From Staphylococcus phage vB_SauM-UFV_DC4: DNA of 64,000 nt. Positions 1,937-52,431 of this stretch are shown piece by piece. A program made the translations under genes and the position numbers. Every line of letters starts with the position of its first letter. Position 1 is the first letter of the stretch. The notes below the pieces were generated by a model that saw nothing but the letters and a program-made list of their open reading frames with translations, was not told the DNA's origin and made no database searches. Where the stretch lies: sequence record MZ779063.1. The stretch is one strand, 5' to 3'.

Positions 1937-4672
1937 ATGAAGATTAAAAGATTAAAGTTAAAGAATTTTATCGGTATTTATGCTGGTATGGGATTAAAAG
2001 AAGTTGAAATTGATTTTAGTAAAAGTAAAAATAATATGATTATGCTTCTTGGAGATAACGCTTCAGGTAAGACGACAGTTATGTCTAATCTTAATCCATA
2101 TAGAGAAACTAATGATCAACGTAAAACTATAGTATTAGAAGATGAAAAAGGTATAAAAGAGATTGATTATATTAAGGGTAATGATGTTTATGAAATTAAA
2201 CATCATTATGGTAAAAACAGTTCTCAAAATAAATCATTCATTAAGAAAAATGGTGAAGAACTTAATGAAAATGGTGGTATTAAATTATTCAATGAAATAG
2301 TAGATAAAGAATTAGGTGTATCTAAAGAATACTTTACTGTAGGTCGTTTAGGTGATAACGTATCAAACTTCATTGACTATACTACAGGTGATCGTAAATC
2401 ATATATCAATAAATTTGTACCTAATATTGATAGATACTTAGAAGCTTATAAAGTAGCTAATGAGAAATTAAAAATTATTACTAAAGATTTAAAATCACTT
2501 AGATTTGATTTAGACAAATATAAAGAATTTGATGAAATCAAAAAAGAAAAAGAGAATTTAGAAACTTTAATTGATCAATTACAAAATGAACTTGATGAAG
2601 CTAATAAAGATAAAACAACTCATGAAACTAAAATGAATTCTATCATGGAAGATAAGTACAAAGAGATTCATCCAACTGAATATAAAAATCAATTAATTAA
2701 TGAAATTAATGAACTTAATCAAGAATTAGAAAAAGAAAGAAAGTTAAAAGAAGATAATGAGAATTTAAATAAATATACTATTGAATCCGCTAATGAGAAA
2801 AAAGATAAAATAGATACTATATTAAATAATACTAATAATGAGTTGACTTCTGTTGAGAAAGATAAAGAGAATAATCAAGATAAATTAGATGATTTAATCA
2901 GTAGAAAATCTAAAATAGAATCTCGTATGAATGCTATCAAATTTAATGAAGATTATGATGCTTCTGATGAAATTGATTCAATTCTTGAAGGATATAAAGA
3001 AGATTTAGAAGGTATTAAAGATGATGTAGATATTTCTAGAGGGTCTTTTGTAAGTGAATTCGGTTTACAAATTAAAGATAATATTAAAGAGGATTCATTA
3101 AGATTATATGTAAATGATTTAATTTCTAAGGTAGATAATTTTAAAGAATTTATTAATGATAATGAATTTAAATATGGTTCTATTCGTGGAGATTTTGAAA
3201 GTGAAATTAAAGATAATAATGAAAAAATTTCTATGAACCAGAATGAATTTAATGAAATTAATACTAAGCTTAATCAAATTAAAGGTAAATCAGACTTATT
3301 AAAAATATTAGATCAAAAAGATCATGAACACTATAATGAATGTGTATTTGTTCCTTTAGTAGCTGACTTTAAAGATAATGAATTTGATTCAATTTCTGAA
3401 TTAGAAAATAAAGGTAATCAACTTTATAAAGATAATCAAGAATTAGAAAAAGATAATAGATTATTATCTAATCATATTGATTTATTACGTAAATTTAATG
3501 ACATACTTAATAGCAGAAATGGTTTAATTGAATATATTGGTTTTGAAATGATTGATATTGATAGTATTGAAGAAATATTTACTAATGGTAATACATTCTC
3601 TAGTGAACTAAATAGACTTAATTCATTAATTGAAAAGACAAATGAAATTCGTACTAATGAAACTAATAGAGATAAATTGACTATTGAATTAGAGAGAAAA
3701 GAAAATGCTCTTAAAGAAGATTATTCTAATAAGAAAATATTAGATCAATATAAAGAAGATAAAGAAGATTTAGTTAAACAAATTGAAGAAATTAAAAATA
3801 AAAATAATGAAATTTCTGAGAATCTTAATTATCTTAATGGTCGTAAAGAAAAAGCAATTACTAACTTAAATATTATTAATGAATTTATTAATCTAACAGA
3901 GAGATCTGAAGAAATTAAATTAAAAATGAAAGATAAAAATGATATAGTTGATGACATTGATAAGGATCTTTCAAAATTAAGTAATTTATATGAACTTAAT
4001 CAAAAAGCAGACAATAAGATTCAATCTATTAAAGATAATTTAACTATGAAGAAAAATGATTTAGAATCTACTAAAGAAAAATACTTTGCAGTTAATTCTA
4101 TTATTACTAAGATTGATGAAATTGAATCAGTGTTATGGAAATATAATATGGTGGTAGACTCATTAAATCCTAAGAAAGACTCTATACCATTAATATTCAT
4201 TACTAATTATCTTAAAGATATTGCAGTAAGTACTAATGAATTACTTTCAGTTGCTTATAATAATTCATTTAAAATTGACTTTGACTTAACAGATAAAGAT
4301 TTCTTTATTAATGTGTATAAAGGTAATGGAACTGAACTTAAGGATATTAAAGAAGCTTCTCAAGGAGAAACAGCTTTAACTAATATTAGTTTATCATTAT
4401 CATTATTAAACAAAGTATCTCAAGATTATAATATTCTATACTTAGATGAAATGGATTCAACATTAGATTCTAATAATAGAAGAAGATTTGTTGATGTGAT
4501 TGACAGACAAATTGAATTAATGGGTCTAGAGCAAGTATTCTTAATTAGTCATAATGATGAATTTTATAGTGCTAATATTGACTTAATTTTACTTAAAGGA
4601 TATGAAAGTAAAATTGACATTAATAATGAAGAAATGATGCAAGGTAAAAATGTATTATTTAAAGTAAACTAA
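1937..4672 (+). CDS. SbcC/Rad50-like (T4 gp46-like) SMC-family recombination/repair ATPase
   Basis: N-terminal Walker A LLGDNASGKTT right after a KLKNFIGIY start typical of Rad50/SbcC. About 700 aa of coiled-coil-like K/E/N-rich sequence. C-terminal signature SQGETALTNISLSLSL, then Walker B/D-loop ILYLDEMDSTLD and FLISHN. Confidence 0.8.
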   Translation: MKIKRLKLKNFIGIYAGMGLKEVEIDFSKSKNNMIMLLGDNASGKTTVMSNLNPYRETNDQRKTIVLEDEKGIKEIDYIKGNDVYEIKHHYGKNSSQNKSFIKKNGEELNENGGIKLFNEIVDKELGVSKEYFTVGRLGDNVSNFIDYTTGDRKSYINKFVPNIDRYLEAYKVANEKLKIITKDLKSLRFDLDKYKEFDEIKKEKENLETLIDQLQNELDEANKDKTTHETKMNSIMEDKYKEIHPTEYKNQLINEINELNQELEKERKLKEDNENLNKYTIESANEKKDKIDTILNNTNNELTSVEKDKENNQDKLDDLISRKSKIESRMNAIKFNEDYDASDEIDSILEGYKEDLEGIKDDVDISRGSFVSEFGLQIKDNIKEDSLRLYVNDLISKVDNFKEFINDNEFKYGSIRGDFESEIKDNNEKISMNQNEFNEINTKLNQIKGKSDLLKILDQKDHEHYNECVFVPLVADFKDNEFDSISELENKGNQLYKDNQELEKDNRLLSNHIDLLRKFNDILNSRNGLIEYIGFEMIDIDSIEEIFTNGNTFSSELNRLNSLIEKTNEIRTNETNRDKLTIELERKENALKEDYSNKKILDQYKEDKEDLVKQIEEIKNKNNEISENLNYLNGRKEKAITNLNIINEFINLTERSEEIKLKMKDKNDIVDDIDKDLSKLSNLYELNQKADNKIQSIKDNLTMKKNDLESTKEKYFAVNSIITKIDEIESVLWKYNMVVDSLNPKKDSIPLIFITNYLKDIAVSTNELLSVAYNNSFKIDFDLTDKDFFINVYKGNGTELKDIKEASQGETALTNISLSLSLLNKVSQDYNILYLDEMDSTLDSNNRRRFVDVIDRQIELMGLEQVFLISHNDEFYSANIDLILLKGYESKIDINNEEMMQGKNVLFKVN

Positions 4673-7835: not shown

Positions 7836-10298
7836 TTGAAAAGGAGTGTTTTGAATTTGGCTGATGAGAATAAAACTCAGAGAAGTATAAATAATCTCAA
7901 CAGAGATATGGTCAGAGGATTAGGCGATGAAGAAAATCCTAAGAACTTATCTGACAATATAAATGATTTTGATGATAGACTAAAAAAGATAAGACGTAAA
8001 AGTAATCATGGTAATAGTAATGGTGATATTCTATCTTTAGCATCTAAAGTAAACGGTAAAAGTAGAAATGTTAGAAAATCTAATACCGGTGATGATAAAA
8101 AAGATTTCATTAAAGATTTTATAGAAGAGAATATTGAAAATCAAGATTTTTCATCTGAAATTGCTAGAGTATCTAGATACGATGACTATAGAATTATAGA
8201 TAAATTTATACCTGAAATATCAACAAGTATTGATGTATTCGCTACTTCTATTATTGCACCTGATGATACTTCTAAATTATCATTGATGTATCGTTATGGT
8301 GATACAAATAATAAAGATGAATCAGAAAATAAAGAAGTTTTAAATGAATTAGATAGAATTGTAAAGAAATATAATTTGGACAATTTGACATATACTTCTA
8401 TTCGTGATGGTTTATTATTAGGTGATGTATTCTATATTATTAAAGATACTAAGTCTGATTTTGAAGAAATACTTAATGAAAATGATGACGTATTAGGAAG
8501 AGAAACACGAGATGAACAAAAAGTAATTAATGAATCATTTATTGACCAGAATCTTAAAGAATCTGATTTAGACACTATAATTAATGAATTTAATAATCAA
8601 TTTGAAAAGCCTATTAAAGATGAAGATCAATTAAATGAACAGAGAACTAATTTTAAAAATGAAATATTAAAGAGTATTAATGAGAATGTAGCTTTCTTTG
8701 AAAATTCTTCTGAATTACTCTCTGATATAGGTAAATACAAAGGTTCTAATGACTTACAATCATTTTTAAATAAAGCAGATAACAAAAATAAATCTAGTAA
8801 ATTAAAATCTGGTTCAGTTTATTTTAGATCCGTAGAACCCGAAGACATGATTAAATTAGAAATTGATGGTATGTGTATTGGTTATCTTTATATTGAACCT
8901 GATTCTGGAACTGATTTAAGAGGAGGAGCTAATCCTTTATTATCTGCTATGAATAATTTAATGGGAGATGGATACCAGAAGCAAGGTCAAACAGGATCAC
9001 CTTCAGGTGGTATGGGAATTACTAACTTAGATCCTGTTACTGGTGGCGTTGCAGGAAATAATATGTCTAGTAATTCTAAAAATCCTAATTCAGGAATGAA
9101 TGCTACATCTGGATCATATTATGAAAATGGAAATACTGTTATGGCATATCAAGGTTTAGTTGATGTTATAGTTAAAGGTATATCTCAAAAGATTAATATG
9201 GACTTCATTAATAAAAATGATTCATTTAAAGATATCATATATAGATTAATCCGTAAGAATTATATTATTGAAAATGGTATTAAAATGACTTTCTTAGAAG
9301 CTGATGAAGTGTTTCATCATAAATTAGACAGTCAAAAAACTTATGGAGTTTCTAAACTTAATAAATCATTATTCTTTGCTAAATTATATTTAAGTACTTT
9401 AATAACTACAATGATGGTTAAATTAAATCAATCAAGAGATAGACGTGTATTTAGAGTTAATGCAGGTTTAGATGATGATTATGAAGGAACTGTAGAAGAA
9501 ATAATTCGTAATGTGAGACAAAACGAAATGTCTACAGGATTATTTGGTGACGGAACTTCAGTTCAAACATTATTCAATCAAGTAGGTAACTTAGAAAACA
9601 TGTACATTCCTCAAAATAAAGAAGGTACTTCACCTTTAGAAATAGATACAATCTCTGGTATTCAAGTTGATATTAATGATGAGTTCTTAGAATGGCTTAA
9701 GAAATCAGTTATATCAGGTACAGGAGTTCCTTTAAACTATATTGATGCTGAAACTGAAACTGATTACGCACGTTCATTATCAATGCAGAATAATAACTTT
9801 GTCAGACGTGTAGTTAATTATCAAAAATCTTTCGGTGAATTTTATACTGAAGTATTAAGAAAACTTTATTATTTAGAAAATGTAAGTAAAAATAAAAAAG
9901 AAAATGAAGAATTAAGTAATAGAATACAAGAAATTGAAGCATACTTCCCAGCACCAGTATTCTTAAACTTAGGAAACCTTAATGAAGAAGTTGGAGCCGT
10001 TACGCAAATGATAGACTTCTTAGTTCCTTTATATACTTCAGAAGCTTCTGGTGACGAAGAAGAAGATGATAACGAAAAACTAAAACGTCTATTCCGTAAA
10101 GAATTAGTTCAACAAGAATTCATGTCTAATTTAGATTACGATAGATATGAAGATATTATTAACAATATTAAAGATGAAATAAATAAAGATAAAAGAAAAA
10201 ATGACATGGTAAATAATAATAATACTGATGAAGACGATTTATCTTCTTCAGATGACTCTGAAAATAATTCAAGCGATAATTTTGAGGATGATTTCTAA
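7836..10298 (+). CDS. Large hypothetical protein with a Gly/Ser/Asn-rich internal linker and a strongly acidic C-terminal tail; the true start is probably TTG at 7851 after AAGGAG
   Basis: Long ORF; low-complexity segment GGANPLLSAMNNLMGDGYQKQGQTGSPSGGMGITNLDPVTGGVAGNN; C-terminus DEDDLSSSDDSENNSSDNFEDDF. Confidence 0.5.
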   Translation: MKRSVLNLADENKTQRSINNLNRDMVRGLGDEENPKNLSDNINDFDDRLKKIRRKSNHGNSNGDILSLASKVNGKSRNVRKSNTGDDKKDFIKDFIEENIENQDFSSEIARVSRYDDYRIIDKFIPEISTSIDVFATSIIAPDDTSKLSLMYRYGDTNNKDESENKEVLNELDRIVKKYNLDNLTYTSIRDGLLLGDVFYIIKDTKSDFEEILNENDDVLGRETRDEQKVINESFIDQNLKESDLDTIINEFNNQFEKPIKDEDQLNEQRTNFKNEILKSINENVAFFENSSELLSDIGKYKGSNDLQSFLNKADNKNKSSKLKSGSVYFRSVEPEDMIKLEIDGMCIGYLYIEPDSGTDLRGGANPLLSAMNNLMGDGYQKQGQTGSPSGGMGITNLDPVTGGVAGNNMSSNSKNPNSGMNATSGSYYENGNTVMAYQGLVDVIVKGISQKINMDFINKNDSFKDIIYRLIRKNYIIENGIKMTFLEADEVFHHKLDSQKTYGVSKLNKSLFFAKLYLSTLITTMMVKLNQSRDRRVFRVNAGLDDDYEGTVEEIIRNVRQNEMSTGLFGDGTSVQTLFNQVGNLENMYIPQNKEGTSPLEIDTISGIQVDINDEFLEWLKKSVISGTGVPLNYIDAETETDYARSLSMQNNNFVRRVVNYQKSFGEFYTEVLRKLYYLENVSKNKKENEELSNRIQEIEAYFPAPVFLNLGNLNEEVGAVTQMIDFLVPLYTSEASGDEEEDDNEKLKRLFRKELVQQEFMSNLDYDRYEDIINNIKDEINKDKRKNDMVNNNNTDEDDLSSSDDSENNSSDNFEDDF

Positions 10299-19042: not shown

Positions 19043-20713
19043 TTATTCTGTAGCTTCTTCTTCTGGAGATTCTTCTACTTGTGAAGTAGAAATATTAATA
19101 TTAATATCTTTACTTATACTGTCAGAAATAACATTAACTTTAGCAGTTCCTGCAGCTTTAGCAGTCACGAGTCCATCGTTATTAACTGAAGCAAATTCAG
19201 AACCTTCAGTAATAGAATAACTTACAGGGTTTCCTTTAGGATCTGTAGTTACATTTAATTGTTGAGTTTCATTGTCTTTCATATCAATACTATCAGGAGT
19301 AACTGTTAGACTTTTAGTCTTTACTCTAGTTACATTAACATTAACTGTCTTACTAATAGAATCAGAACTTACTTTAACTTTAGCAGTTCCTACAGTTTTA
19401 GCAGTTACAAGACCACTATCATTAACTGAAGCAAATTCAGATCCTTCAGTAATAGAATAACTTACATTGTTTGTAGATGGTTGAATTTTAACGTCTAACT
19501 GTTGAGTTGATTCTGCATCTATGTTAACTTCTTCTGGAGTAACAGTTAGACTTTTAGTCTTTAAACGACTTACATTAACTTCTACATTTTTAGAAACATT
19601 GTCTGATTTAACTGTCACATTTGCAGTTCCTTCAGAAATACCAGTAATATTTCCTTTATTATCTAATGAAGCAAATTCAGAACCGTCTTTTAATTCAAAG
19701 CTTACTTTTCTTCCTTCAGGTTCAGTAGTAACTTCTAATTTTTGAGTTTCTTCTGCTTCAATATTAACTGTCTCTGGAGTAACAGTTAAGCTTTTAGTTT
19801 GATTGATACTTTCAAATTTTCCGTTTTTAGGATTATAAACGGAATATTCAATTTTTTTATCAATTTCGTTTTGTACTGTTTCTTCACTTAATATGCGAAT
19901 ATTGAAATTAACAATATTATCTTGAATACTTCTCTCATGTACTTTAACTAAGACTTCACCAGTTTTACTAAAGAATAATAAACGATTTTTATCTGATTGG
20001 TATCTAGCATAACTTTCATCACTAATATTTACAGATAATAATTGTAAAAGGTTTTCTTTAGCTACAGGAGTAACTTCTTTAGTATCGAAATCTTTATAAC
20101 CTAAGATTTTATCTAAAGGTAAAACAGATTCTTTAAGAACGTTAATATCTTGTTGTAATTGAACAAGACGTCCTGTAAATTTACCGTATTCTTTAACTTT
20201 AATAAAGATTGAATCTTTAACACGTTCAAAGATATTTTTATGTCCTTCAGAAATAGCAATATCATACTTTTCTGAAGCATCTTTAGGGAAGTATAATTTA
20301 AGTTCATATTCTTCATTAACTTCTAAATCAGAAGTAGGTAAACTTAAAATTTCAGATTTAACATCTTTAGCAGTATAAGTTTTAACTACAGACTTATCTG
20401 AAAGTTTGATTAAGTCAAATTTTAATAATCCCAATACATCACGAGCATCTACAGGATTAATATAGAAAGGTACATTAATAAACTTACCAGTTTCTCCTTC
20501 AGATTTGAAGTAAACTGTTCTTCTATCATATTTAATTTTACCAGTTTCAGGAAGAGGTTGAACATCAGTAACAGTCCAACCAGCTTGTTTTAAGCTAGCT
20601 AGATCATTACTAGAAAGAATAACGTTTTCACGAGGTCCACGTTCACCTAAACCTAAAAATGGAATTAATTTTTCATCTAATAATTTTACTTTAAAGTAGT
20701 TAGTAGTAGCCAT
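19043..20713 (-). CDS. Virion-associated protein with three tandem C-terminal bacterial Ig-like (Big_2-type) domains
   Basis: Three repeats of about 90 aa: KTKSLTVTPExVNIxAExTQQLxV...SYSITEGSEFASVNxxGLVTAKxxGTAKVxVxSDSISKxVNVNV. The N-terminal ~370 aa is unassigned. Confidence 0.6.
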   Translation of the reverse strand: MATTNYFKVKLLDEKLIPFLGLGERGPRENVILSSNDLASLKQAGWTVTDVQPLPETGKIKYDRRTVYFKSEGETGKFINVPFYINPVDARDVLGLLKFDLIKLSDKSVVKTYTAKDVKSEILSLPTSDLEVNEEYELKLYFPKDASEKYDIAISEGHKNIFERVKDSIFIKVKEYGKFTGRLVQLQQDINVLKESVLPLDKILGYKDFDTKEVTPVAKENLLQLLSVNISDESYARYQSDKNRLLFFSKTGEVLVKVHERSIQDNIVNFNIRILSEETVQNEIDKKIEYSVYNPKNGKFESINQTKSLTVTPETVNIEAEETQKLEVTTEPEGRKVSFELKDGSEFASLDNKGNITGISEGTANVTVKSDNVSKNVEVNVSRLKTKSLTVTPEEVNIDAESTQQLDVKIQPSTNNVSYSITEGSEFASVNDSGLVTAKTVGTAKVKVSSDSISKTVNVNVTRVKTKSLTVTPDSIDMKDNETQQLNVTTDPKGNPVSYSITEGSEFASVNNDGLVTAKAAGTAKVNVISDSISKDININISTSQVEESPEEEATE

Positions 20714-38650: not shown

Positions 38651-38858
38651 ATTTAGGATTTATAAATAACTATTTTAATATAGTAATAGATATATTTCTA
38701 TTTACTATATTCGTAAATTCTTTTTCTTACTCAATCTCGTAATTTGTTTTGCGTCAAGCAGGTTACATGGGCCTCCTACCCGTATAATATTGTACTACAC
38801 CTAAGTGGATCATAGAAAATGGTCCACTTTATTTATCGTTTTCAATTAATTTTTAAAA

Positions 38859-38885
38859 TTATATTATAAATATGAATATTTAAGT
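38859..38885 (+). promoter_or_regulatory. Promoter-like motif TTATATTATAAATATGAATATT
   Basis: TATATTATA family copy upstream of ORF 38912. Confidence 0.4.
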
Positions 38886-38911
38886 TATTATAAATTAATT
38901 GAGGTGATAAA

Positions 38912-40363
38912 ATGTTGGGTAAAAAATTATTAACTGTTTTTGGAGAGATCTATGATGAAGGATTATTCACATATCCTAACTTAGATTTAAATAAAAATTA
39001 TACAACTAAAGAATATATAGATATAAAATGTTATAAACATGGAATTTTCTCTAGAACTATAAATTCTCATAAAAAGAAAAGAAAATGCAGAAAATGTTCT
39101 AATGAAGAAAATAAATGGGATAACAATAAATATCTATCTGAATTATTTAAGAAAAATAAAGAATTTAAAGATTTATATAAATATGATAAGTTAAATTATC
39201 AAGGCTATCATAAAAAAATAAAAATATATTGCAATAAGCATGGATATTTTGAACAGATAGCAAATAACCATTTAAATGGAATGGGATGTAATGAATGCAG
39301 TATAGATAAACATAGAAATAAAAAATCAAATAAGAAAAAATATACTGTAGATGAATTATTAAATGATGAGAACTTGAATACTCAACAAAAATCAAATATT
39401 GTTAGATGTCATTTTAATAATAAAGATAAAAATGAGTACTATATAAAAAAATCTAAGATGGTTCATGGTAATAAATATATTTACGATAAGTTCAATTACA
39501 TTAATAAAAAGAATAAAGTAAAAATATATTGCCATAAGCATGGATATTTTGAACAAAGAATAGAAGAACATATTAATAAGAAAATGGGTTGTCCTTCTTG
39601 TGGAATGATTGTTTCTAAAAATGAAGAAATGTTAAATAATGATTTAAAGCATTTTAATTTCAATATTATTAGAAATGATAGAAAGATTTTAGATAAAAAA
39701 GAAATCGATATACTTATTCCAGAAGAGAAAATTGCAATAGAAATTAATGGTAATTATTGGCATTCAAATTTGGTTATGGATGAATTAAAAGCTAAAAGAC
39801 ATTTATATAAAAAATTTAAAATGTCTAAGGTTAAAGATTATCATTTAATAAATTTTTATGAAGATGACTTCATTTATAAATATAATTTAATTTTAAAAGA
39901 AATATTTTTACTAACAGATAAACTAAAATTATATAATTTTAAAAAAGATTATTTAAAGATTGAATCTTTAGATAATCAAAAATTTATAGATTTTTATAAT
40001 AATAATTCTTTATATAATATTAATAATAATTATAGATCAGCTTATGCTATAAAATATAAAGAATTTATAATAGGTGCATTTTCTTTAAATGAAGATAATG
40101 TATGTTATAATTATTGTATTAATTATAATAATAATGAAGATTTAAGTTTAATTAAAGAATTATTTCCTAATATAGTATTTAAAGTAAAGATTGACTCTTT
40201 TAATAGTTATAAATTTTTAAATAATGAATTACTAATTATAAATTATGAAAGTCCTAAATTTTATAATTTTCAATTAACTGGAAAAGACAGATTAAAAAGA
40301 AAAATTATAAATAATAGTGATAACAGAATATATGATTGTGGAAGTTATAGTTTTATATTTTAA
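38912..40363 (+). CDS. Putative homing-type endonuclease, paralog 2 of 3 (three KHG zinc-ribbon repeats plus a Vsr/DUF559-like core)
   Basis: CYKHGIFSRTINSHKKKRKCRKCS, CNKHGYFEQIANNHLNGMGCNECS, CHKHGYFEQRIEEHINKKMGCPSCG; nuclease core IAIEINGNYWHSNLVMDELKAKRHLYKK; C-terminus NRIYDCGSYSFIF. Confidence 0.6.
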   Translation: MLGKKLLTVFGEIYDEGLFTYPNLDLNKNYTTKEYIDIKCYKHGIFSRTINSHKKKRKCRKCSNEENKWDNNKYLSELFKKNKEFKDLYKYDKLNYQGYHKKIKIYCNKHGYFEQIANNHLNGMGCNECSIDKHRNKKSNKKKYTVDELLNDENLNTQQKSNIVRCHFNNKDKNEYYIKKSKMVHGNKYIYDKFNYINKKNKVKIYCHKHGYFEQRIEEHINKKMGCPSCGMIVSKNEEMLNNDLKHFNFNIIRNDRKILDKKEIDILIPEEKIAIEINGNYWHSNLVMDELKAKRHLYKKFKMSKVKDYHLINFYEDDFIYKYNLILKEIFLLTDKLKLYNFKKDYLKIESLDNQKFIDFYNNNSLYNINNNYRSAYAIKYKEFIIGAFSLNEDNVCYNYCINYNNNEDLSLIKELFPNIVFKVKIDSFNSYKFLNNELLIINYESPKFYNFQLTGKDRLKRKIINNSDNRIYDCGSYSFIF

Positions 40364-40364
40364 A

Positions 40365-40395
40365 TAGAAGGATAGTATCCTTCTATTTTTTTTTT
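40365..40395 (+). terminator. Hairpin AGAAGGATA-gt-ATCCTTCT followed by a T10 run
   Basis: Directly after the 38912..40363 stop. Confidence 0.6.
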
Positions 40396-40403
40396 ATTTA
40401 TTA

Positions 40404-40474
40404 TGTTCTTGTTGCTACTGGTTAAAGCATATCGAGTAAATCGGTATTTTGTGAGTTCGACTCTCACCAAGAAC
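40404..40474 (+). tRNA. tRNA-like element (71 nt cloverleaf, anticodon region ambiguous, possibly TAA)
   Basis: 7-bp acceptor stem GTTCTTG/CAAGAAC, D arm GCT-ACTGGTTAA-AGC, anticodon arm TATCG-AGTAAAT-CGGTA, 4-nt variable loop, canonical T arm GTGAG-TTCGACT-CTCAC, discriminator A; no encoded CCA. Confidence 0.45.
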
Positions 40475-40846
40475 ACGCCAATAGGATTAATCATCCTTAC
40501 ACTAAGGCTGCAGACTTAGTGTGAATAAAATACAGTATGAGCTATATGCCACTCTTATACTGTTAGATTCAACTAATGCTAAGGCATATCATTAGTTGTA
40601 AAAATTTAAAACTTATATCTAATTTACGTTTAGTTATTAGATTGTATTTTTGTTAAAGAGGACTTATTTTACTTAATTGTAATAAGTATCTGACTTTAAC
40701 TTAATTGGTTTTCTAGTTTTGACCCTAACAATAAAAAACTAGACTATTAAATATTTTATTTCTTTTTAGCTCACAACTTAAAAGAAAAAACTAGGTGGAT
40801 CATTTTATGCTTTTTTGATCGGCTAAAAACTAATAAAGCACCCTTA

Positions 40847-40880
40847 CCCTAACCTCATTAATTTGAAGGTTAGGGTTATT
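40847..40880 (+). terminator. Hairpin CCCTAACCTC-ATTAATTTG-AAGGTTAGGG followed by a T-rich run; member of the CCCTAACC family
   Basis: Ends the structured noncoding region 40380..40880, just before the promoter motif at 40897. Confidence 0.5.
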
Positions 40881-40896
40881 TTATACATAGTTTTAA

Positions 40897-40925
40897 ATAT
40901 ATATTATAAAAATGAGATATAATTG
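40897..40925 (+). promoter_or_regulatory. Promoter-like motif ATATATATTATAAAAATGAGATAT
   Basis: TATATTATA family copy upstream of ORF 40962. Confidence 0.4.
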
Positions 40926-40961: not shown

Positions 40962-42914
40962 ATGATAGGTTCAAAGATTAGAAAATCATTAAATGAAAAA
41001 TTTGGTTATCATTATAAGTTTTTATTAGAAGATTTTAAGAAAGATTATGATTTAAATAATGATACAATTATGGTAACTAAAGAAGCTAGTGACATCACAA
41101 AAGAATATAAAATAAAATCATTAAAGTATACTAAAGACATTGAAAAATTAGACAAAGACTTTAAGAAAGAGGAAGAAGAATTAAATATTAGAAAATCTAG
41201 AATTTTTAATTTAGATGAATTAGGTTTAGATGAAGACCTTAGAAACATCTGTAAGTATATAGACAGCACTACTAAATTAAAAGTAAAAGTTAGAGAGTAT
41301 AAAAAAGAAAGTAAAGAAAATATTGAATTCTTTTACAAAAATTTTGCTAATTTTACTTATAATAGTGTAATATATGATATGAGTCATTTTAAACCATCAA
41401 CAATTAGATCTAATCAGAAAGTTATATGTAGAAAACATGGACCTTTCTTTACTACTCCAGTAGATTTCTTTATAAAGAAAAAAGGTTGTCCAGTTTGTGA
41501 AAAAGAAACAGATGAAGAAAAGAAAGACACTAGTTGGAAGGATGAATTCATAGAAAATAATAATAAAAAAATATATCAAGAAGTAAAAGAAGAGAAAGAA
41601 AAAGAAAATAAAAAAGCTAAAAAAGAAAAGGTAGATATAAATAAGGAAAATAAAAAACTTTTAGATGAAGTCTTAAATCCACCTGAATTAGGATATTATA
41701 GAGAACCAGATAAAATACCTAATTCCAAAAAAGAAAATGAGAGATTCTTAAAGAATATTAAAGAAATAGATAATAATAAAGTTGAAGAATCTAAAGAAGT
41801 TGAAAAACCAAAGGAAATTGTTAAACCTAAATTAAATAAAAAGACAGTTGATCAAATAATAGCAGATAATAATACTAATCTGAGTAGAAAGATTAAATAT
41901 ATAAATAAAAATATTTATACAGAAAATGAAAGACAAGATTTCTATAAAAAATTAACTGACCGCAAACATGGTAAAAATAAATATAAAATTGATGAATTTA
42001 GACCTAAGACAATTAAAGAAAAACAAGAAGTAATTTGTCTTAAGCATGGACCTTTTAAAATAACAGCTGAAGAATTATTAATTAAAGGTAACCAGTGTCC
42101 TAAATGTTCTTCTAATAGAACTTCCATAACAGAAACTTTTGTAAGAGAATATATTCAGAGTTTAGATTTTGAAGTTAATAATTACGAGATAGAAGATTTA
42201 ATCAAACCTTATGGTGTTGATATAATTATCGAAAATTTAAAATTAGCTATTGAAGTTCAAGGTATCAAATATCATTCATCTGAAACAAGATCAGAAGCTT
42301 CAAATAAATACCATCAATTAAGAAAATTAAAAATGCTAGAAAATAAAGGTTATCATTTATTGAATATATATGATGATGAAATTCCTAATAAAAATAAAGG
42401 AATTGGTTGGGATAAATTTGGTAGATTTTTATCTGAATTAATGATGTTTGATAAAAGATTTGATATTGAAGAAATGGATACGAATTCAATAAAAATAGAT
42501 ACAATTAGTTATTACAAATTCAGAGAATTCTTTGAAAATTCTAGACAAGAATTTGTTACTGGAGATACAGAATATAAAGGAGTGGTTTATAAGAATAAAT
42601 TAATTTCAGTATTTTCTTATAATAAAGAAACAAGAGAATGTCATAACTACCATACTATGACAAATAATAAATTTGATTTAGAATTAATTTACAGAAAATA
42701 CAAAGATTTAAAATTTATAGTTAAAAGAGATTCTTATGTAGCGTATAAAATGAAAGGGCATGATATGTTACCGATAGCAGAAACAGAACCTGGTTTCTGT
42801 AACTTTTCAAAGATTGATGGAGATAGAAAAAATAACTATATAAGACAAAAAAGAAAGAATGAAAATGATAAAAACAAAGTTTATGACTGCGGAAATATAA
42901 TTTTTGTATTTTAA
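40962..42914 (+). CDS. Putative homing-type endonuclease, paralog 3 of 3 (two KHG zinc-ribbon repeats separated by a Lys/Glu-rich spacer, Vsr/DUF559-like core, conserved C-terminus)
   Basis: CRKHGPFFTTPVDFFIKKKGCPVCE, CLKHGPFKITAEELLIKGNQCPKCS; nuclease core LAIEVQGIKYHSSETRSEASNKYHQLRKLKMLENKGYHLLNIYDDEI; C-terminus NKVYDCGNIIFVF. Confidence 0.6.
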   Translation: MIGSKIRKSLNEKFGYHYKFLLEDFKKDYDLNNDTIMVTKEASDITKEYKIKSLKYTKDIEKLDKDFKKEEEELNIRKSRIFNLDELGLDEDLRNICKYIDSTTKLKVKVREYKKESKENIEFFYKNFANFTYNSVIYDMSHFKPSTIRSNQKVICRKHGPFFTTPVDFFIKKKGCPVCEKETDEEKKDTSWKDEFIENNNKKIYQEVKEEKEKENKKAKKEKVDINKENKKLLDEVLNPPELGYYREPDKIPNSKKENERFLKNIKEIDNNKVEESKEVEKPKEIVKPKLNKKTVDQIIADNNTNLSRKIKYINKNIYTENERQDFYKKLTDRKHGKNKYKIDEFRPKTIKEKQEVICLKHGPFKITAEELLIKGNQCPKCSSNRTSITETFVREYIQSLDFEVNNYEIEDLIKPYGVDIIIENLKLAIEVQGIKYHSSETRSEASNKYHQLRKLKMLENKGYHLLNIYDDEIPNKNKGIGWDKFGRFLSELMMFDKRFDIEEMDTNSIKIDTISYYKFREFFENSRQEFVTGDTEYKGVVYKNKLISVFSYNKETRECHNYHTMTNNKFDLELIYRKYKDLKFIVKRDSYVAYKMKGHDMLPIAETEPGFCNFSKIDGDRKNNYIRQKRKNENDKNKVYDCGNIIFVF

Positions 42915-42967: not shown

Positions 42968-43651
42968 TTATTGAATTATCTTATTTGGTTTAACTTCACT
43001 TTTCATTTTGATTTCAGTTTTAACTTTGTCAAGAACTTCTGATTCATATAAAGAAGGATCTTCCTCATATTTTTTAGTCATCTTCTTAACAGCTGCTAAT
43101 TTATTTTCCAATGGTGCTTCTAATTCTACTTGATTAAATAATCCTTCAAAATTACCGAAAACAAATTCTTCATTTAATGGAATAAACAGATCTCCATTGT
43201 GTGCTAATTCATGAGCAGTATAAGATAGAGGTACAATTCCTATATTACCTTCAAAATGCATTTTAATAACATCTTCTGCTACAGTAAAACTCTCATGAGA
43301 CTTTTTATACTCATAATTAGTTTTAAGTTTTTCTCTATAGCTAGATACTATATCATATAGAGACAATGGGTAGTGGTGCATTTCTATAGTTAATCGCTTA
43401 TCATCATTTATATCAACTTCTGGTATAAACTTACATTTAGTAAGATCCATTTCAGTTTTCAAAGCTTTAATAAATGATTTGTATTCATATGAGCTTCTAA
43501 CTATTTTTTCAATATATTTATTAAATGTCTCTTCAGACTTTATATCATCTTCATTATTATACATTTCAAATTTCTTTGTTTCATCTACATTTAATTCTAT
43601 TGTTTCGATTAATTTTGGAAGGTCTTTTTTATCTACTTTTGGCATTTGCAT
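42968..43651 (-). CDS. Hypothetical protein
   Basis: ORF; contains HHYPLS...HELAHNGD, a possible metal-binding motif (weak). Confidence 0.45.
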   Translation of the reverse strand: MQMPKVDKKDLPKLIETIELNVDETKKFEMYNNEDDIKSEETFNKYIEKIVRSSYEYKSFIKALKTEMDLTKCKFIPEVDINDDKRLTIEMHHYPLSLYDIVSSYREKLKTNYEYKKSHESFTVAEDVIKMHFEGNIGIVPLSYTAHELAHNGDLFIPLNEEFVFGNFEGLFNQVELEAPLENKLAAVKKMTKKYEEDPSLYESEVLDKVKTEIKMKSEVKPNKIIQ

Positions 43652-50916: not shown

Positions 50917-52431
50917 ATGGTAAAAAAAGCAGATAACAATGAACTTAATGATTTTATGTCTGAAGAAGAATTAAATGAAGTTAGTCAAGGTTCTTCTAAT
51001 AATGATGAGAAACAAGAACAAAAACAAAGTAATCAAAAACAACAACATAATAAAAATAATCAAGGTAATAAAAAGAAAAATAACAATCGCAGAAGAAATA
51101 ACAATAATAAACATAATCAACAAGATAAGAAACAAAATCAAAATAGCAAATCAGCAATTCCAACTCAAAGAAATAAAGACAATCAAACTATGATGAGTGC
51201 TAGTGTTGATAGTGATAATCAACAAGAACAAGCTAAAACAGATCATATTAATTTAGATGGTCCTCAACCAGGCGAAGGTTTTGTTGACTATGAAAACTTA
51301 ACTTCATATGGATTTAGTGAAGGAAAATCAAATGAAGATAATTCTAGCATGACATTATCTGATTTTGAAGAACAACAAGAACAAAAAGCTAAAAAAGATT
51401 ATGAAAATCAAAAAGCTATTAGTGAAATTGAAAGTATTAGCAGTGATGAAAGAGCTAATCTATTAAATAATATTAATGTAGATTTAGATAATATTGAAAT
51501 TATTTCTGACATTGATTATGATATTGATAAAGAAAACACTAATTTCGTATTAAATAGTAAAGCAACTCATCAAGTTGTATTACCACAATCAGCATACATT
51601 GCTCATATGGAAAGTTTACGTAACCAAGAGATTTTATCTATTGCTGAATCTATTGATGATGATTACAATGCAATGTTAAAACGTTACCAATTATACTTCC
51701 ATAAAATGAATACAAATTCATTAGGAATTAATAACTTCCAAGATTTCGCTAGATTAACTTCTGTATATGATGTTAGTACTATTGAATACGGATTATACAA
51801 TATTTCATTCCCTGGTGAAACTAAATTTGATATTAGATGTGGTAGCTGTAGAGCTGAATTAAAAGACGTTAAAGTTTCTAATGATCAATTAATGTCATTT
51901 AAAGATGAAGATGCTTTCGATCATGTTACTAAAAATGTTAAGAATATCACTAGTGTTGATGAAAATAAAGAACACTCATTAATTTATACTGAACAACGTA
52001 TTGCTTTAAGAGATTCTAAAATTATCTTTGAAATTGTAACACCTACTGTTGAAAAACACTTAAGAGTTTTAGGTAGTATCCATATGGACGGTTTAACTGA
52101 AGATGAATCAGAAAGATTTAAACAAAATGCCACAGCTTTAATGCATGTTAAAAATGTTTATATCCCTGACTTAAAAACACTTAAAGAAGGACAAAAACCT
52201 AAGTTCCGTAAATTAAGTGAAGATAACATGAAAGATAAAATGAAAATTATTGAAAATCTTTCTATTCGTGATGGACATCAATTAACTGATGCTATTTATG
52301 ATCGTGTTAATAAACATGCTATTGAATATGCTATTAAAGGTGCAAACTGTCCTAATTGTGGAGAAGATTTAGGTAAGATTGATATTGACATGAGTGAAAT
52401 GCTTTTTCGGGAAGCGCTGCATTTGGTTTAG
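50917..52431 (+). CDS. Hypothetical protein with a Q/N/K-rich low-complexity N-terminal region and a C-terminal CxxC pair
   Basis: KQEQKQSNQKQQHNKNNQGNKKKNNNRRRNNNNKHNQQDKKQNQNSK; NCPNCGEDLGKIDI. Confidence 0.5.
   Translation: MVKKADNNELNDFMSEEELNEVSQGSSNNDEKQEQKQSNQKQQHNKNNQGNKKKNNNRRRNNNNKHNQQDKKQNQNSKSAIPTQRNKDNQTMMSASVDSDNQQEQAKTDHINLDGPQPGEGFVDYENLTSYGFSEGKSNEDNSSMTLSDFEEQQEQKAKKDYENQKAISEIESISSDERANLLNNINVDLDNIEIISDIDYDIDKENTNFVLNSKATHQVVLPQSAYIAHMESLRNQEILSIAESIDDDYNAMLKRYQLYFHKMNTNSLGINNFQDFARLTSVYDVSTIEYGLYNISFPGETKFDIRCGSCRAELKDVKVSNDQLMSFKDEDAFDHVTKNVKNITSVDENKEHSLIYTEQRIALRDSKIIFEIVTPTVEKHLRVLGSIHMDGLTEDESERFKQNATALMHVKNVYIPDLKTLKEGQKPKFRKLSEDNMKDKMKIIENLSIRDGHQLTDAIYDRVNKHAIEYAIKGANCPNCGEDLGKIDIDMSEMLFREALHLV

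What the first reader, a model, noticed from the sequence alone, without database searches (positions are those of the whole stretch)
40404..40880. tRNA-like cloverleaf followed by ~400 nt of structured, relatively GC-enriched noncoding RNA
A 71-nt sequence forms a canonical tRNA cloverleaf (perfect 7-bp acceptor stem and a TTCGACT T-loop). Its anticodon loop is odd: G at position 33 and an apparent TAA anticodon with a short variable arm. It could be a functional phage tRNA, a degenerate tRNA or an integration/homing target. Downstream, at 40480..40880, several strong hairpins (CACTAAG/CTTAGTG, CAACTAATG/CATTAGTTG, GTATGAG/CTTATAC) sit with no ORF. They end at a CCCTAACC-family terminator. 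Together this looks like a small ncRNA locus.
Basis: seen in the sequence. Interest (0 to 1): 0.55.

Follow-up and report, generated by a model that had tools for sequence, protein, structure and literature searches.

The report
Phage tRNA-shaped module fused to structured RNA
A Staphylococcus jumbo phage carries a conserved non-coding RNA gene: a tRNA-shaped piece whose decoding loop is not conserved, joined to hairpins whose loops are complementary to each other, which resembles in style, but not in sequence, the unexplained tRNA-linked RNAs of other phages.

Summary
Window 40405-40475 (+) folds as a cloverleaf and scores 35.6 bits on Rfam tRNA (cut-off 29). ARAGORN does not call it. The window is phage vB_SauM-UFV_DC4, whose paper already lists this element as a "pseudo-tRNA-Leu".

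New here:
- In ten Staphylococcus jumbo phages and one metagenomic relative, all four cloverleaf stems are kept through compensatory changes. The anticodon loop varies freely (7 nt, 8 nt, or 20-50-nt insertions). The tRNA shape is under selection, not decoding.
- The following ~400 nt, up to a terminator at 40846-40882, is a real structured RNA. Its 125-nt core (H1-H4, 40479-40603) is 97.7% paired, and 15 of 39 pairs show double changes.
- Two diverged metagenomic relatives keep the same four-hairpin layout.
- The H2 loop always carries the palindrome CUGCAG.
- The H3 and H4 loops are mutually complementary in three lineages with three different sequences.
- No Rfam family matches the downstream RNA.

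Best reading: a stand-alone phage ncRNA. The tRNA-like module probably serves as a processing or stability handle, and the loops probably mediate RNA-RNA self-pairing. Function and expression are untested. It is a new family within a known kind, tRNA-linked structured phage RNAs such as ROOL and GOLLD.

The parts
40405..40475 (+). tRNA-like module: full cloverleaf with acceptor, D, anticodon-stem and T arms, discriminator A at 40475 and no encoded CCA. The anticodon loop AGUAAAU has G33.
   Evidence: Rfam RF00005 scores 35.6 bits against a cut-off of 29. ARAGORN is negative. Across 9 distinct homologues the acceptor, D and T stems are 100% paired, and 8 of 16 pairs have double changes. The anticodon stem also covaries while its loop does not. 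The DC4 paper lists it as pseudo-tRNA-Leu at 72,405-72,475.
40476..40482 (+). 7-nt linker between the discriminator and H1. It leaves no room for a promoter, so the tRNA-like module and the ncRNA are one transcript.
   Evidence: Read directly from the sequence. The linker is 6-8 nt in all Staphylococcus phage homologues.
40483..40497 (+). H1: AGGAU-UAAUC-AUCCU, a 5-bp hairpin.
   Evidence: Invariant in the Staphylococcus phages. Compensated in L047 (AAGUU/AACUU) and L049 (AAGGU/GCCUU) in the model-fitted alignment.
40499..40522 (+). H2: an 8-bp stem with loop GCUGCAGA (40507-40514), which contains the palindrome CUGCAG.
   Evidence: 6 of 8 stem pairs have double changes. The CUGCAG loop is kept in every homologue, including L047 and L049, whose stems share no sequence with DC4. 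Predicted self-duplex is about -10 kcal/mol.
40532..40563 (+). H3: a 10-bp stem with a 12-nt loop. The loop segment AUAUGCC (40544-40550) is complementary to the H4 loop.
   Evidence: 5 of 10 pairs have double changes. The G-U pair at columns 62/79 supports the + strand. For the loop complement, see H4.
40570..40598 (+). H4: a 9-bp stem with an 11-nt loop. The loop segment GGCAUAU (40583-40589) is complementary to the H3 loop.
   Evidence: 4 of 9 pairs have double changes. The H3/H4 loop complementarity is AUAUGCC/GGCAUAU in the Staphylococcus phages, GGCUUAU/AUAAGCC in L047 and UUGUUGGA/UCCAACAA in L049. Composition-preserving shuffles reach the observed length in 0.1-0.4% of trials per lineage (1.6% for the 6-nt SA1 variant).
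40604..40708 (+). Variable middle region with hairpins H5 (40612-40647) and H6 (40652-40700).
   Evidence: Folded. Absent in Madawaska, partly absent in AH12 and LY01, and replaced or expanded in SA1 and Machias. It is therefore dispensable or a spacer.
40709..40743 (+). H7: UUUUCUAGUUU / AAACUAGA stem with a variable loop.
   Evidence: The arms are invariant in the Staphylococcus phages, while the loop varies in length and sequence.
40759..40840 (+). 3' domain. H8 is at 40759-40787. H9 (40797-40820) has the conserved loop UUAUGCUUU, whose UGCUUU (40808-40813) can pair with AAAGCA (40835-40840) as a candidate pseudoknot.
   Evidence: The H9 stem covaries (GAUC/GAUC, GACC/GGUC, AUCC/GGAU). The loop and the downstream AAAGCA are invariant, so the pseudoknot is untested by covariation. 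H8 is absent in the Machias clade.
40846..40882 (+). Intrinsic terminator: ACCCUAACCU...AGGUUAGGGU followed by UUAUUUU. This is the 3' end of the ncRNA.
   Evidence: It is conserved in all homologues. An AR9-type early promoter AAATATATATTAT for the next gene follows at 40895-40907.

Best explanation
This is a stand-alone non-coding RNA gene of the AR9-like Staphylococcus jumbo phages. It is about 475 nt long, from 40405 to the terminator at 40846-40882, and has two parts.

(1) A 5' tRNA-shaped module. It is kept for its shape, not for decoding. It most likely makes the transcript a substrate for the host tRNA-end-processing enzymes: RNase P at its 5' side, where in sister phages a tRNA lies 4-5 nt upstream, and RNase Z after the discriminator, since no CCA is encoded. 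This would define the ends of the ncRNA. Alternatively it stays attached as a stabilising tRNA-mimic handle.

(2) A 125-nt core of four hairpins (H1-H4) followed by a variable 3' domain. The conserved business ends of the core are its loops: a palindromic CUGCAG loop (H2) and two mutually complementary 7-8-nt loops (H3 and H4). The most likely mode of action is RNA-RNA pairing through these loops. My preferred version is pairing between copies of the same RNA, H2 with H2' and H3 with H4', giving dimers or higher oligomers.

Shown here: the locus is real, is conserved as RNA structure, has a selected tRNA shape with an unconstrained anticodon loop, has covarying loop-loop complementarity, and is an independent unit.

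Inferred: the processing steps, whether the loop pairing is intermolecular, and any biological role.
For: Identity and context:
- The window is vB_SauM-UFV_DC4. Coordinates are offset by 32,000 from the paper's tRNA coordinates, and the neighbouring RNAP beta' protein is 100% identical to the DC4 protein.
- The locus is single-copy. It is present in all nine related Staphylococcus jumbo phages in the collection and in two metagenomic relatives.

tRNA-like module:
- It scores above the Rfam tRNA cut-off in DC4 (35.6 bits) and in L047 (36.2 bits, with a 50-nt loop insertion).
- Acceptor, D and T stems are 100% paired with 8 of 16 compensated pairs; slid controls give 37-47%.
- The anticodon stem is UAUCG/CGGUA, UAUCG/CGAUA, AACCU/AGGUU, UACGG/CUGUA or UACAG/CUGUA.
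- The anticodon loop is AGUAAAU, AACAAAU, the 8-nt UUUGAAUA, or 20-38 nt.
- T-loops keep the pattern UUCRANU, and D-loops of the Staphylococcus phages keep GG.
- A true tRNA lies 4-5 nt upstream in PALS_2, S6, Madawaska, Machias and L047.

Core H1-H4:
- 97.7% of cells are paired and 15 of 39 pairs have double changes. No shuffle in 500 reaches this, and slid registers give 25-40% paired with 0-2 compensated pairs.
- RNAalifold predicts the same helices.
- Folding z-score is -5.77.
- A covariance model of the core finds L047 (27.5 bits) and L049 (24.1 bits) full-length, with 32/32 and 30/32 model pairs formed despite unrelated stem sequences.

Loops:
- CUGCAG is invariant in H2 in all lineages.
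- H3/H4 complementarity is kept with three different sequences, shuffle p about 0.001-0.004 each.

Independence from neighbouring genes:
- The RNA ends in a terminator and the next gene has its own AR9-type early promoter.
- In L049 the RNA is followed by a terminator and then a convergent gene.

Precedent: ROOL and GOLLD are phage RNAs, often near tRNA islands, that build homo-oligomers through kissing loops. GOLLD sometimes has tRNAs in its linker (PMC12286853).
Against: - No expression data. The one transcriptome paper on a relative (SA1) does not mention tRNA or ncRNA.
- No promoter was identified. In DC4 the unit starts 17 nt after the terminator of an inserted gene, so transcription may depend on read-through.
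- The sample is small: about 11 distinct sequences in 3-5 lineages. The L047 and L049 matches are modest (24-28 bits, rough E-values), and their pair counts come from a model-fitted alignment.
- Within the Staphylococcus phages, H1, the H3/H4 loops and the candidate pseudoknot never vary, so they are uninformative there.
- Inter- versus intramolecular loop pairing cannot be decided from sequence. Intramolecular 6-bp loop-loop helices exist, for example in the lysine riboswitch (own knowledge).
- A conserved palindromic loop could instead be a protein-binding site.
- L049 has no detectable tRNA-like module, so the module is not indispensable.
- RNase P and RNase Z cleavage is inferred only from shape and the lack of CCA.
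Confidence: 0.5

Rival explanations
1. Monomeric RNA. H3 and H4 kiss within one molecule to build a compact fold. The RNA, with the tRNA-like module still attached, acts as a decoy, sponge or guide for a host or phage protein (for example a tRNA-handling enzyme, nuclease or defence factor) or for another RNA. The CUGCAG loop is a binding site rather than a dimerisation site.
For: This rests on the same structural evidence as the best explanation. Covariation shows that the loops pair, not with whom. Strict conservation of loop and linker sequences in the Staphylococcus phages fits a binding surface. The tRNA shape is conserved independently of any anticodon, as expected of a mimic.
Against: The linker between H3 and H4 is only about 4-6 nt, and the stems are 8-14 bp with no obvious bend. 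A 7-8-bp kissing helix normally stacks roughly coaxially with its stems, which a short linker cannot span. This is an inference from known kissing-complex geometry, not a computation. No candidate partner protein is conserved next to the locus, because the neighbours differ between phages.
Confidence: 0.3
2. A working decoder tRNA-Leu(UAA) in the DC4/PALS_2 clade, useful for a 25%-GC phage rich in UUA codons. The downstream RNA is merely co-transcribed.
For: The full cloverleaf scores above the Rfam tRNA threshold. It has a 7-nt anticodon loop with UAA, or CAA in LY01, discriminator A73 and canonical T- and D-loop signatures. Bacterial LeuRS does not read the anticodon (own knowledge).
Against: - Position 33 is G, or A in LY01, instead of the near-universal U.
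- The variable region is short, unlike bacterial tRNA-Leu.
- ARAGORN rejects it, and tRNAscan-SE called it a pseudogene in the DC4 paper.
- Orthologues in SA1, Machias, PB50, AH12 and L047 have 8-nt to 50-nt loops with no common anticodon, yet keep the stems.
Confidence: 0.08
3. A decaying pseudo-tRNA followed by meaningless spacer, which is the published reading for these phages.
For: [quoted passage not shown] The DC4 paper lists a pseudo-tRNA. Anticodon loops are indeed degenerate, and L049 shows no tRNA hit.
Against: Neutral decay would break stems. Instead 100% of acceptor, D and T cells pair, with 8 of 16 compensated pairs. The 'spacer' has 15 of 39 compensated pairs and invariant loops, plus homologues with unrelated stem sequences but the same layout.
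Confidence: 0.05
4. A cis-acting leader or attenuator controlling the downstream 650-aa gene (40962-42914).
For: It lies directly upstream on the same strand and ends in a terminator.
Against: The 650-aa gene has its own AR9-type early promoter after the terminator (40895-40907). The downstream gene differs in L047 (a 697-aa DUF723 protein). In L049 the RNA faces a convergent gene. No riboswitch or T-box family matches.
Confidence: 0.03
5. A DNA-level element, such as a replication origin, packaging site or recombination site made of inverted repeats.
For: There are many inverted repeats in an AT-rich genome, and the locus sits at a variable junction where cassettes come and go.
Against: G-U pairs would be A-C mismatches on the other strand. 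Folding is better on the + strand (z -5.77 against -3.73). The element has a tRNA fold, a terminator and T-run, and loop-loop complementarity, none of which has a DNA rationale.
Confidence: 0.03

Closest known systems
ROOL and GOLLD RNAs (Rfam families; Kretsch et al., Nature 2025, PMC12286853)
   Same: They are phage- or prophage-encoded, large, highly structured and of unknown function. They are typically next to tRNA genes, and GOLLD sometimes has tRNAs inside its linker. Conserved and covarying loop-loop (kissing) contacts build homo-oligomers, and there is a variable, poorly conserved linker region.
   Different: There is no sequence or structure match to either Rfam model at E<=10. This RNA is much smaller (125-nt core, about 400 nt in all, against about 580 to over 800 nt). 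The tRNA partner here is a fused, non-decoding tRNA-like module. Oligomerisation here is only inferred. So far it is seen only in Staphylococcus-type AR9-like jumbo phages.
phi29-family packaging RNA (pRNA)
   Same: One RNA carries two hairpin loops that are complementary to each other.
   Different: No Rfam pRNA hit. The host phages are myovirus-type jumbo phages that are not known to use a pRNA. The complementary segments are 7-8 nt rather than 4. This RNA has an extra palindromic loop and a tRNA-like module. It is not located at a genome end.
tRNA-like processing modules: MALAT1-mascRNA, MEN-beta and the MHV68 tRNA-miRNA (TMER) transcripts
   Same: A non-decoding tRNA-shaped element is embedded in a longer non-coding transcript. 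It recruits RNase P and/or RNase Z to define the ends of the adjoining RNA (abstracts; TMERs from own knowledge).
   Different: Those are eukaryotic or herpesviral. Here the processing is only inferred, and the module sits at the 5' end of a bacterial-phage RNA.
Phage T4 stable RNAs C and D (species 1 and 2) in the tRNA gene cluster
   Same: Small stable RNAs of unknown function that are co-transcribed and co-processed with phage tRNAs (own knowledge; not checked here).
   Different: No sequence relation was tested. The T4 RNAs are about 120-140 nt, and no complementary-loop architecture has been described for them.
tmRNA
   Same: A tRNA-like domain joined to a pseudoknot-rich RNA.
   Different: ARAGORN finds no tmRNA. 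Here the cloverleaf is complete and contiguous rather than split around the body. Positions 3:70 are U-A, not G-U. There is no conserved tag reading frame, because the middle region has indels.
HIV-1 dimerisation initiation site (DIS)
   Same: A 6-nt G+C-rich palindrome presented in a 7-9-nt hairpin loop. In HIV this drives homodimer kissing (own knowledge).
   Different: Unrelated sequence and biology. Dimerisation here is untested.

Membership tests
tRNA (Rfam RF00005), as a structural class | Covariance-model score at or above the curated cut-off (29 bits) | tested here: met
   35.6 bits at 40405-40475. The L047 homologue scores 36.2 bits. The fast-filter 'gathering' run missed it.
tRNA, as a decoding gene | Called by a tRNA gene finder with a defined anticodon | tested here: not met
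   ARAGORN does not call it in DC4, MarsHill or LY01. The SA1 homologue is called 'tRNA-???' with a 4-base anticodon. tRNAscan-SE labelled it a pseudogene in the DC4 paper.
tRNA, as a decoding gene | 7-nt anticodon loop with U33 and a purine at 37 | tested here: not met
   The loop is AGUAAAU (G33) in DC4, AACAAAU (A33) in LY01, the 8-nt UUUGAAUA in SA1, and 20-50-nt loops in AH12, Machias, PB50 and L047.
tRNA, as a decoding gene | The same anticodon or isotype kept among orthologues | tested here: not met
   UAA, CAA, 'UGAA' or none across orthologues at the same locus.
tRNA, as a decoding gene | Aminoacylation and use on the ribosome | not testable with these tools
   Needs acid-gel northern blots or tRNA-seq from infected cells.
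tmRNA | Detection by ARAGORN, a split tRNA-like domain with G3-U70, and a tag ORF | tested here: not met
   No tmRNA call. Positions 3:70 are U-A. No conserved ORF.
ROOL / GOLLD / other Rfam ncRNA families | A match to the family covariance model | tested here: not met
   No family other than tRNA reaches its gathering score. The next-best E-value is 0.0032, a minus-strand Plastid-ycf2 match over the cloverleaf at 27.1 bits against a cut-off of 65.7. No ROOL, GOLLD or other family match falls in 40476-40882 at E<=10 apart from chance-level hits far below cut-off. The same holds for L047 and L049.
ROOL / GOLLD-like 'tRNA-linked self-assembling phage RNA' (functional kind) | Phage-encoded and adjacent to tRNA genes | tested here: met
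   All copies are in jumbo-phage genomes or contigs. tRNA-Asn or another tRNA lies 4-5 nt upstream in 6 genomes.
ROOL / GOLLD-like 'tRNA-linked self-assembling phage RNA' (functional kind) | Homo-oligomer formation through conserved intermolecular contacts | not testable with these tools
   Only the prerequisites are seen: an invariant palindromic loop and covarying complementary loops. Needs native gels, SEC or cryo-EM.
phi29-type pRNA | A match to the Rfam pRNA model, location near a genome end, and a phi29-like packaging motor | tested here: not met
   No Rfam hit. The locus is internal, at 72.4 kb of a 263-kb genome. The phage is an AR9-like jumbo phage.
phi29-type pRNA | Two loops of one RNA that are mutually complementary and covary between relatives | tested here: met
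   The H3/H4 loops are AUAUGCC/GGCAUAU, GGCUUAU/AUAAGCC and UUGUUGGA/UCCAACAA in three lineages.
tRNA-like processing module (mascRNA / TMER type) | A non-decoding tRNA-shaped element embedded in a longer ncRNA transcript | tested here: met
   Only 7 nt separate the discriminator from H1, so there is no room for a promoter. The shape is conserved without an anticodon.
tRNA-like processing module (mascRNA / TMER type) | Cleavage by RNase P and/or RNase Z at the module's ends | not testable with these tools
   The absence of an encoded CCA after A73 is compatible with RNase Z. No cleavage data exist.

The most novel reading that the evidence does not exclude
The RNA is a compact, naturally self-assembling phage RNA. 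H3 and H4 would act as the two ends of a rod and pair head-to-tail with neighbouring copies, as in phi29 pRNA or designed kissing-loop nanorings. The palindromic CUGCAG loop of H2 would add a two-fold contact. The result would be rings, filaments or a cage that displays or encloses tRNA-shaped modules during infection. That would make it a third, much smaller and evolutionarily independent example beside ROOL and GOLLD of tRNA-linked RNA quaternary structure in phages.
Probability: 0.25. Interest if true: 0.85.

Novelty: new variant of a known kind. Interest (0 to 1): 0.55.

Why it matters
tRNA-linked structured RNAs of phages (ROOL, GOLLD) are now known to form large RNA-only assemblies, but their function is still unknown. 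This locus offers a smaller example, with a 125-nt core, in culturable and genetically tractable S. aureus phages (DC4, PALS_2, S6, MarsHill). Its candidate contact loops are obvious and can be tested by mutation and compensation.

It also changes how the 'pseudo-tRNAs' of these jumbo phages should be read. They have been taken as evidence that the phages' tRNA genes are decaying. The covariation shows instead that the tRNA shape is under selection although the anticodon is not. That points to a non-decoding use of the tRNA fold in a bacterial virus, as a processing signal, a stability cap or a mimic.

In practical terms, the annotation of these genomes should be corrected. DC4's published 'Phe-tRNA' looks spurious, the SA1 'tRNA-Ser' is this module, and MarsHill carries an ORF call on top of it.

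Tried and rejected
- **Rfam searches.** I ran Rfam at the gathering threshold on the whole window, at E<=10 on the locus and at E<=0.01 on the whole window. Only the tRNA model hits, so the downstream RNA belongs to no known family. The minus-strand Plastid-ycf2 hit (27 bits against a cut-off of 65.7) is just the reverse complement of a cloverleaf.
- **Exact-pattern scans.** I scanned IMG/VR, JGI metagenomes and GTDB genomes. There were 0, 2, 17 and 15 hits. All lacked the flanking motifs and hairpin complementarity and came in the number expected by chance.
- **Protein-anchored search of IMG/VR** with the neighbouring g242-like protein found no relatives.
- **More distant AR9-like phages and contigs** (AR9, BpSp, Listeria LPJP1, L050-L056). 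They have no tRNA-like module, no CUGCAG hairpin and no model hit. L054 has tRNA-Asn in another position without the RNA.
- **Link to the phage's retron-like reverse transcriptase.** The literature places that enzyme's own 1.2-kb non-coding region elsewhere.
- **Sigma-70-type promoter in front of the unit.** None was found above chance. No AR9 early (AAATATATATTAT) or late (AACA-N6-TA/G) motif lies directly upstream.
- **Coding potential.** Only 38- and 44-aa mechanical ORFs, which are not conserved.
- **Transcriptome paper on SA1.** No mention of tRNA or ncRNA.
- **AcrIIIA1 protein-RNA anti-CRISPR.** A different phage family, and it binds host tRNA fragments. I judged it not relevant.
Full report
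**What the window is.** The region from 40401 onward is 96-99% identical to Staphylococcus jumbo phages PALS_2 and S6 and 89-97% identical to MarsHill, LY01 and Madawaska. Similarity to SA1, Machias, AH12 and PB50 is weaker. The paper on vB_SauM-UFV_DC4 gives a 'Phe-tRNA' at 52,143-52,236 and a 'pseudo-tRNA (Leu-tRNA)' at 72,405-72,475. These are the ARAGORN call at window 20143-20236 and the finding's cloverleaf at 40405-40475, each shifted by 32,000. The neighbouring RNAP beta' protein is also 100% identical to the DC4 protein. The window is therefore DC4 32,001-96,000, an AR9/PBS1-like jumbo phage. [quoted passage not shown] The cloverleaf has already been noted in print as a pseudo-tRNA, and the MarsHill authors read such elements as decaying tRNA genes.

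**Checking the observation.**
- Acceptor stem GTTCTTG/CAAGAAC.
- D-arm with GG in its loop.
- Anticodon stem TATCG/CGGTA with loop AGTAAAT (G33, TAA).
- A 4-nt variable region.
- T-arm GTGAG-TTCGACT-CTCAC and discriminator A, with no encoded CCA.

ARAGORN does not call the element, and Rfam's fast gathering run missed it. With permissive filters the Rfam tRNA model scores it 35.6 bits against a cut-off of 29. It is the only Rfam hit in the whole 64 kb at E<=0.01. The downstream 405 nt folds into a chain of hairpins with z=-5.77 on the + strand and -3.73 on the - strand. The region is G+C-enriched: 0.36 against 0.12-0.22 in the coding DNA just upstream. It ends in a CCCTAACC-type terminator at 40846-40882. 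The next gene (40962-42914) has its own AR9-type early promoter AAATATATATTAT at 40895-40907.

**The tRNA-like module is selected for shape, not decoding.** I collected the homologous intergenic regions from nine GenBank phages and aligned them.
- Across nine distinct sequences, including a metagenomic relative, every acceptor, D and T-stem position pairs in every sequence.
- Eight of 16 pairs show changes on both sides. Registers slid by 1-3 columns give 37-47% pairing.
- The anticodon stem is also compensated: UAUCG/CGGUA, UAUCG/CGAUA, AACCU/AGGUU, UACGG/CUGUA and UACAG/CUGUA.
- T-loops keep the pattern UUCRANU.
- The anticodon loop is unconstrained. It is AGUAAAU in DC4, AACAAAU in LY01, an 8-nt UUUGAAUA in SA1 (annotated 'tRNA-Ser'; ARAGORN gives 'tRNA-???' with a 4-base anticodon), a 20-nt loop in AH12, a 38-nt extended arm in Machias and PB50, and a 50-nt insertion in L047. 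L047 still scores 36.2 bits on the tRNA model.

This pattern is the opposite of neutral decay, and it is incompatible with a conserved decoding role.

**The downstream RNA is a conserved structured RNA.** The first 125 nt after the module (40479-40603) form four hairpins.
- H1: AGGAU-UAAUC-AUCCU.
- H2: an 8-bp stem with loop GCUGCAGA.
- H3: a 10-bp stem with a loop containing AUAUGCC.
- H4: a 9-bp stem with a loop containing GGCAUAU.

On nine distinct Staphylococcus-phage sequences, 97.7% of cells pair and 15 of 39 pairs have double changes. None of 500 shuffles reaches the observed values, and slid registers give 25-40% pairing with 0-2 compensated pairs. RNAalifold predicts the same helices without guidance. 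G-U pairs, such as columns 62/79, support the + strand.

The loops and linkers are invariant in this clade. The middle of the RNA (H5 and H6, 40604-40708) comes and goes between phages; it is absent in Madawaska. The 3' part keeps H7, a covarying H9 stem with an invariant loop UUAUGCUUU that could pair with a downstream AAAGCA, and the terminator.

**More distant relatives.** Exact-pattern scans of IMG/VR, JGI metagenomes and GTDB genomes gave only chance matches. Anchoring on the neighbouring g242-like protein gave two Logan contigs.

In L047 (83% protein identity), the order on the strand is:
- the 3' end of a genuine tRNA ending in CCA;
- 4 nt;
- the tRNA-like module;
- one extra hairpin;
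- H1 to H4;
- a terminator.

In L049 (66% identity) no tRNA is detected. There is at best a reduced acceptor/T-arm-like stem, which I regard as tentative. H1-H4 and a terminator are present, followed by a convergent gene.

A covariance model built from the Staphylococcus core finds both full-length: 27.5 and 24.1 bits, E about 1e-3 and 5e-3 in a 69-kb search (calibration is rough). In these matches 32/32 and 30/32 model pairs form although the stems share no sequence with DC4. The caveat is that this alignment is fitted to the model. AR9, BpSp, Listeria LPJP1 and seven further related contigs show nothing comparable.

**The informative loops.** Two features survive in all three lineages while the stems are completely replaced.
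- The H2 loop always contains the palindrome CUGCAG, as GCUGCAGA or ACUGCAG.
- The H3 and H4 loops are always complementary to each other, with three different sequences: AUAUGCC/GGCAUAU, GGCUUAU/AUAAGCC and UUGUUGGA/UCCAACAA. The complementary stretch is 7-8 Watson-Crick pairs, about -8 to -10 kcal/mol. Composition-preserving shuffles reach the observed length in 0.1-0.4% of trials per lineage.

This amounts to covariation of a loop-loop helix. Whether it forms within one molecule or between molecules cannot be read from sequence. H3 and H4 are stems of 8-14 bp joined at their bases by only about 4-6 nt. Kissing helices of 6-7 bp normally stack roughly coaxially with their stems. I therefore infer that pairing between molecules is sterically easier, as in phi29 pRNA. 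A G+C-rich palindromic loop is also the classic device for homodimer kissing, as in the HIV-1 DIS. Both points rest on general knowledge of RNA structure, not on a computation here.

**How it most likely works.**

Shown:
- It is an independent, terminator-bounded, + strand unit.
- It has a fused tRNA-shaped 5' module.
- Only 7 nt separate the module from H1, so the two are one transcript.
- In most relatives it lies 4-5 nt behind a true tRNA, so it is part of a tRNA-type polycistron.

Inferred:
- The module makes the precursor a substrate for RNase P.
- Because no CCA follows A73, the module is also a likely substrate for RNase Z, which would release or define the ncRNA. Alternatively the module stays attached as a structured 5' cap or mimic.
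- The core acts through its loops, most likely by self-pairing into dimers or larger assemblies.

The nearest precedents are ROOL and GOLLD. They are phage RNAs, often next to tRNA islands, that form kissing-loop nanocages, and GOLLD sometimes carries tRNAs in its linker. This RNA is not a member of either family. I put the combined explanation at about 0.5. The existence of a conserved structured ncRNA with a non-decoding tRNA-like module I put at about 0.9. Self-association specifically I put at 0.3-0.4.

**Weak points.**
- There are no expression data.
- No promoter is recognisable.
- In DC4 a 483-aa gene cassette with its own promoter and terminator has replaced the tRNA-Asn found in PALS_2 and S6. 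The unit now starts 17 nt after a terminator.
- Few independent lineages are available.
- The loops are invariant within the main clade.

**Novelty.** The cloverleaf itself is already annotated as pseudo-tRNA-Leu in DC4 and tRNA-Ser in SA1. In the library searched I found no description of any of the following:
- the conserved downstream RNA;
- selection on the tRNA shape;
- the covarying complementary loops.

I class the locus as a new family within a known kind, tRNA-linked structured phage ncRNAs.

Noticed in passing
window 20143-20236 (-): The ARAGORN 'tRNA-Phe(aaa)', 94 nt, is the 'Phe-tRNA' reported as DC4's only tRNA. It lies inside a 556-aa Big_2-domain ORF (19043-20713, -) and gets no Rfam tRNA hit even at E<=10 locally. 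It is probably a false positive.
   Followed up: yes
window 38840-40400 (ORF 38912-40363, +): A 483-aa ORF with weak treble-clef zinc-finger and DUF723 hits. It has its own AR9-type early-promoter variant (about 38855) and a terminator (40362-40388). It sits exactly where PALS_2, S6 and Madawaska carry tRNA-Asn(GTT), and homology to those phages resumes at 40401. A gene cassette has replaced the tRNA in DC4. The flanking 697-, 650- and 694-aa genes look like related zinc-ribbon or DUF559-type proteins.
   Followed up: partly
window ~38766-38835 (+): A conserved element upstream of the tRNA/ncRNA unit. It is a small hairpin AUGGG-CCUCCUA-CCCGU; in the Machias clade it is AUACG-CCUCCUUA-CGUAU, which is compensated. 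An anti-Shine-Dalgarno-like CCUCC sits in the loop, the 3' arm overlaps a TATAAT, and a terminator-like hairpin follows at 38803-38829. It could be a promoter or leader of the unit, or a separate small RNA. On the minus strand it reads as a strong SD followed by ATG-TAA.
   Followed up: partly
L004 / L006 / L005 (Machias, PB50, AH12), about 350-430 nt upstream of tRNA-Asn or the tRNA-like module: A second aberrant tRNA-like element. ARAGORN calls it 'tRNA-???' with a 2-base anticodon, and it is annotated as pseudo-tRNA-Asn in Machias. It lies directly after the RNAP beta' gene in this clade only.
   Followed up: no
L011 (AR9) 8706-9265 and 9701-9774: AR9 has a gene-free gap of about 560 nt next to g242, the homologue of window ORF 42968-43651. 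Its single tRNA (Asn) is about 450 nt further on. There is no similarity to the Staphylococcus-phage RNA and no Rfam hit. It may hold a different ncRNA.
   Followed up: partly
L001 (MarsHill) 2968-3078 (-): The MarsHill record annotates a 36-aa hypothetical protein (CPT_MarsHill_163) on the minus strand directly over the tRNA-like module. Given the RNA-structure conservation, this is probably a spurious gene call.
   Followed up: partly
L047 2506-3711 (-): The metagenomic relative carries an IS605 OrfB / Cas12f-like TnpB gene among the nucleotide-metabolism genes, that is, a transposon-type insertion in a jumbo-phage contig.
   Followed up: no
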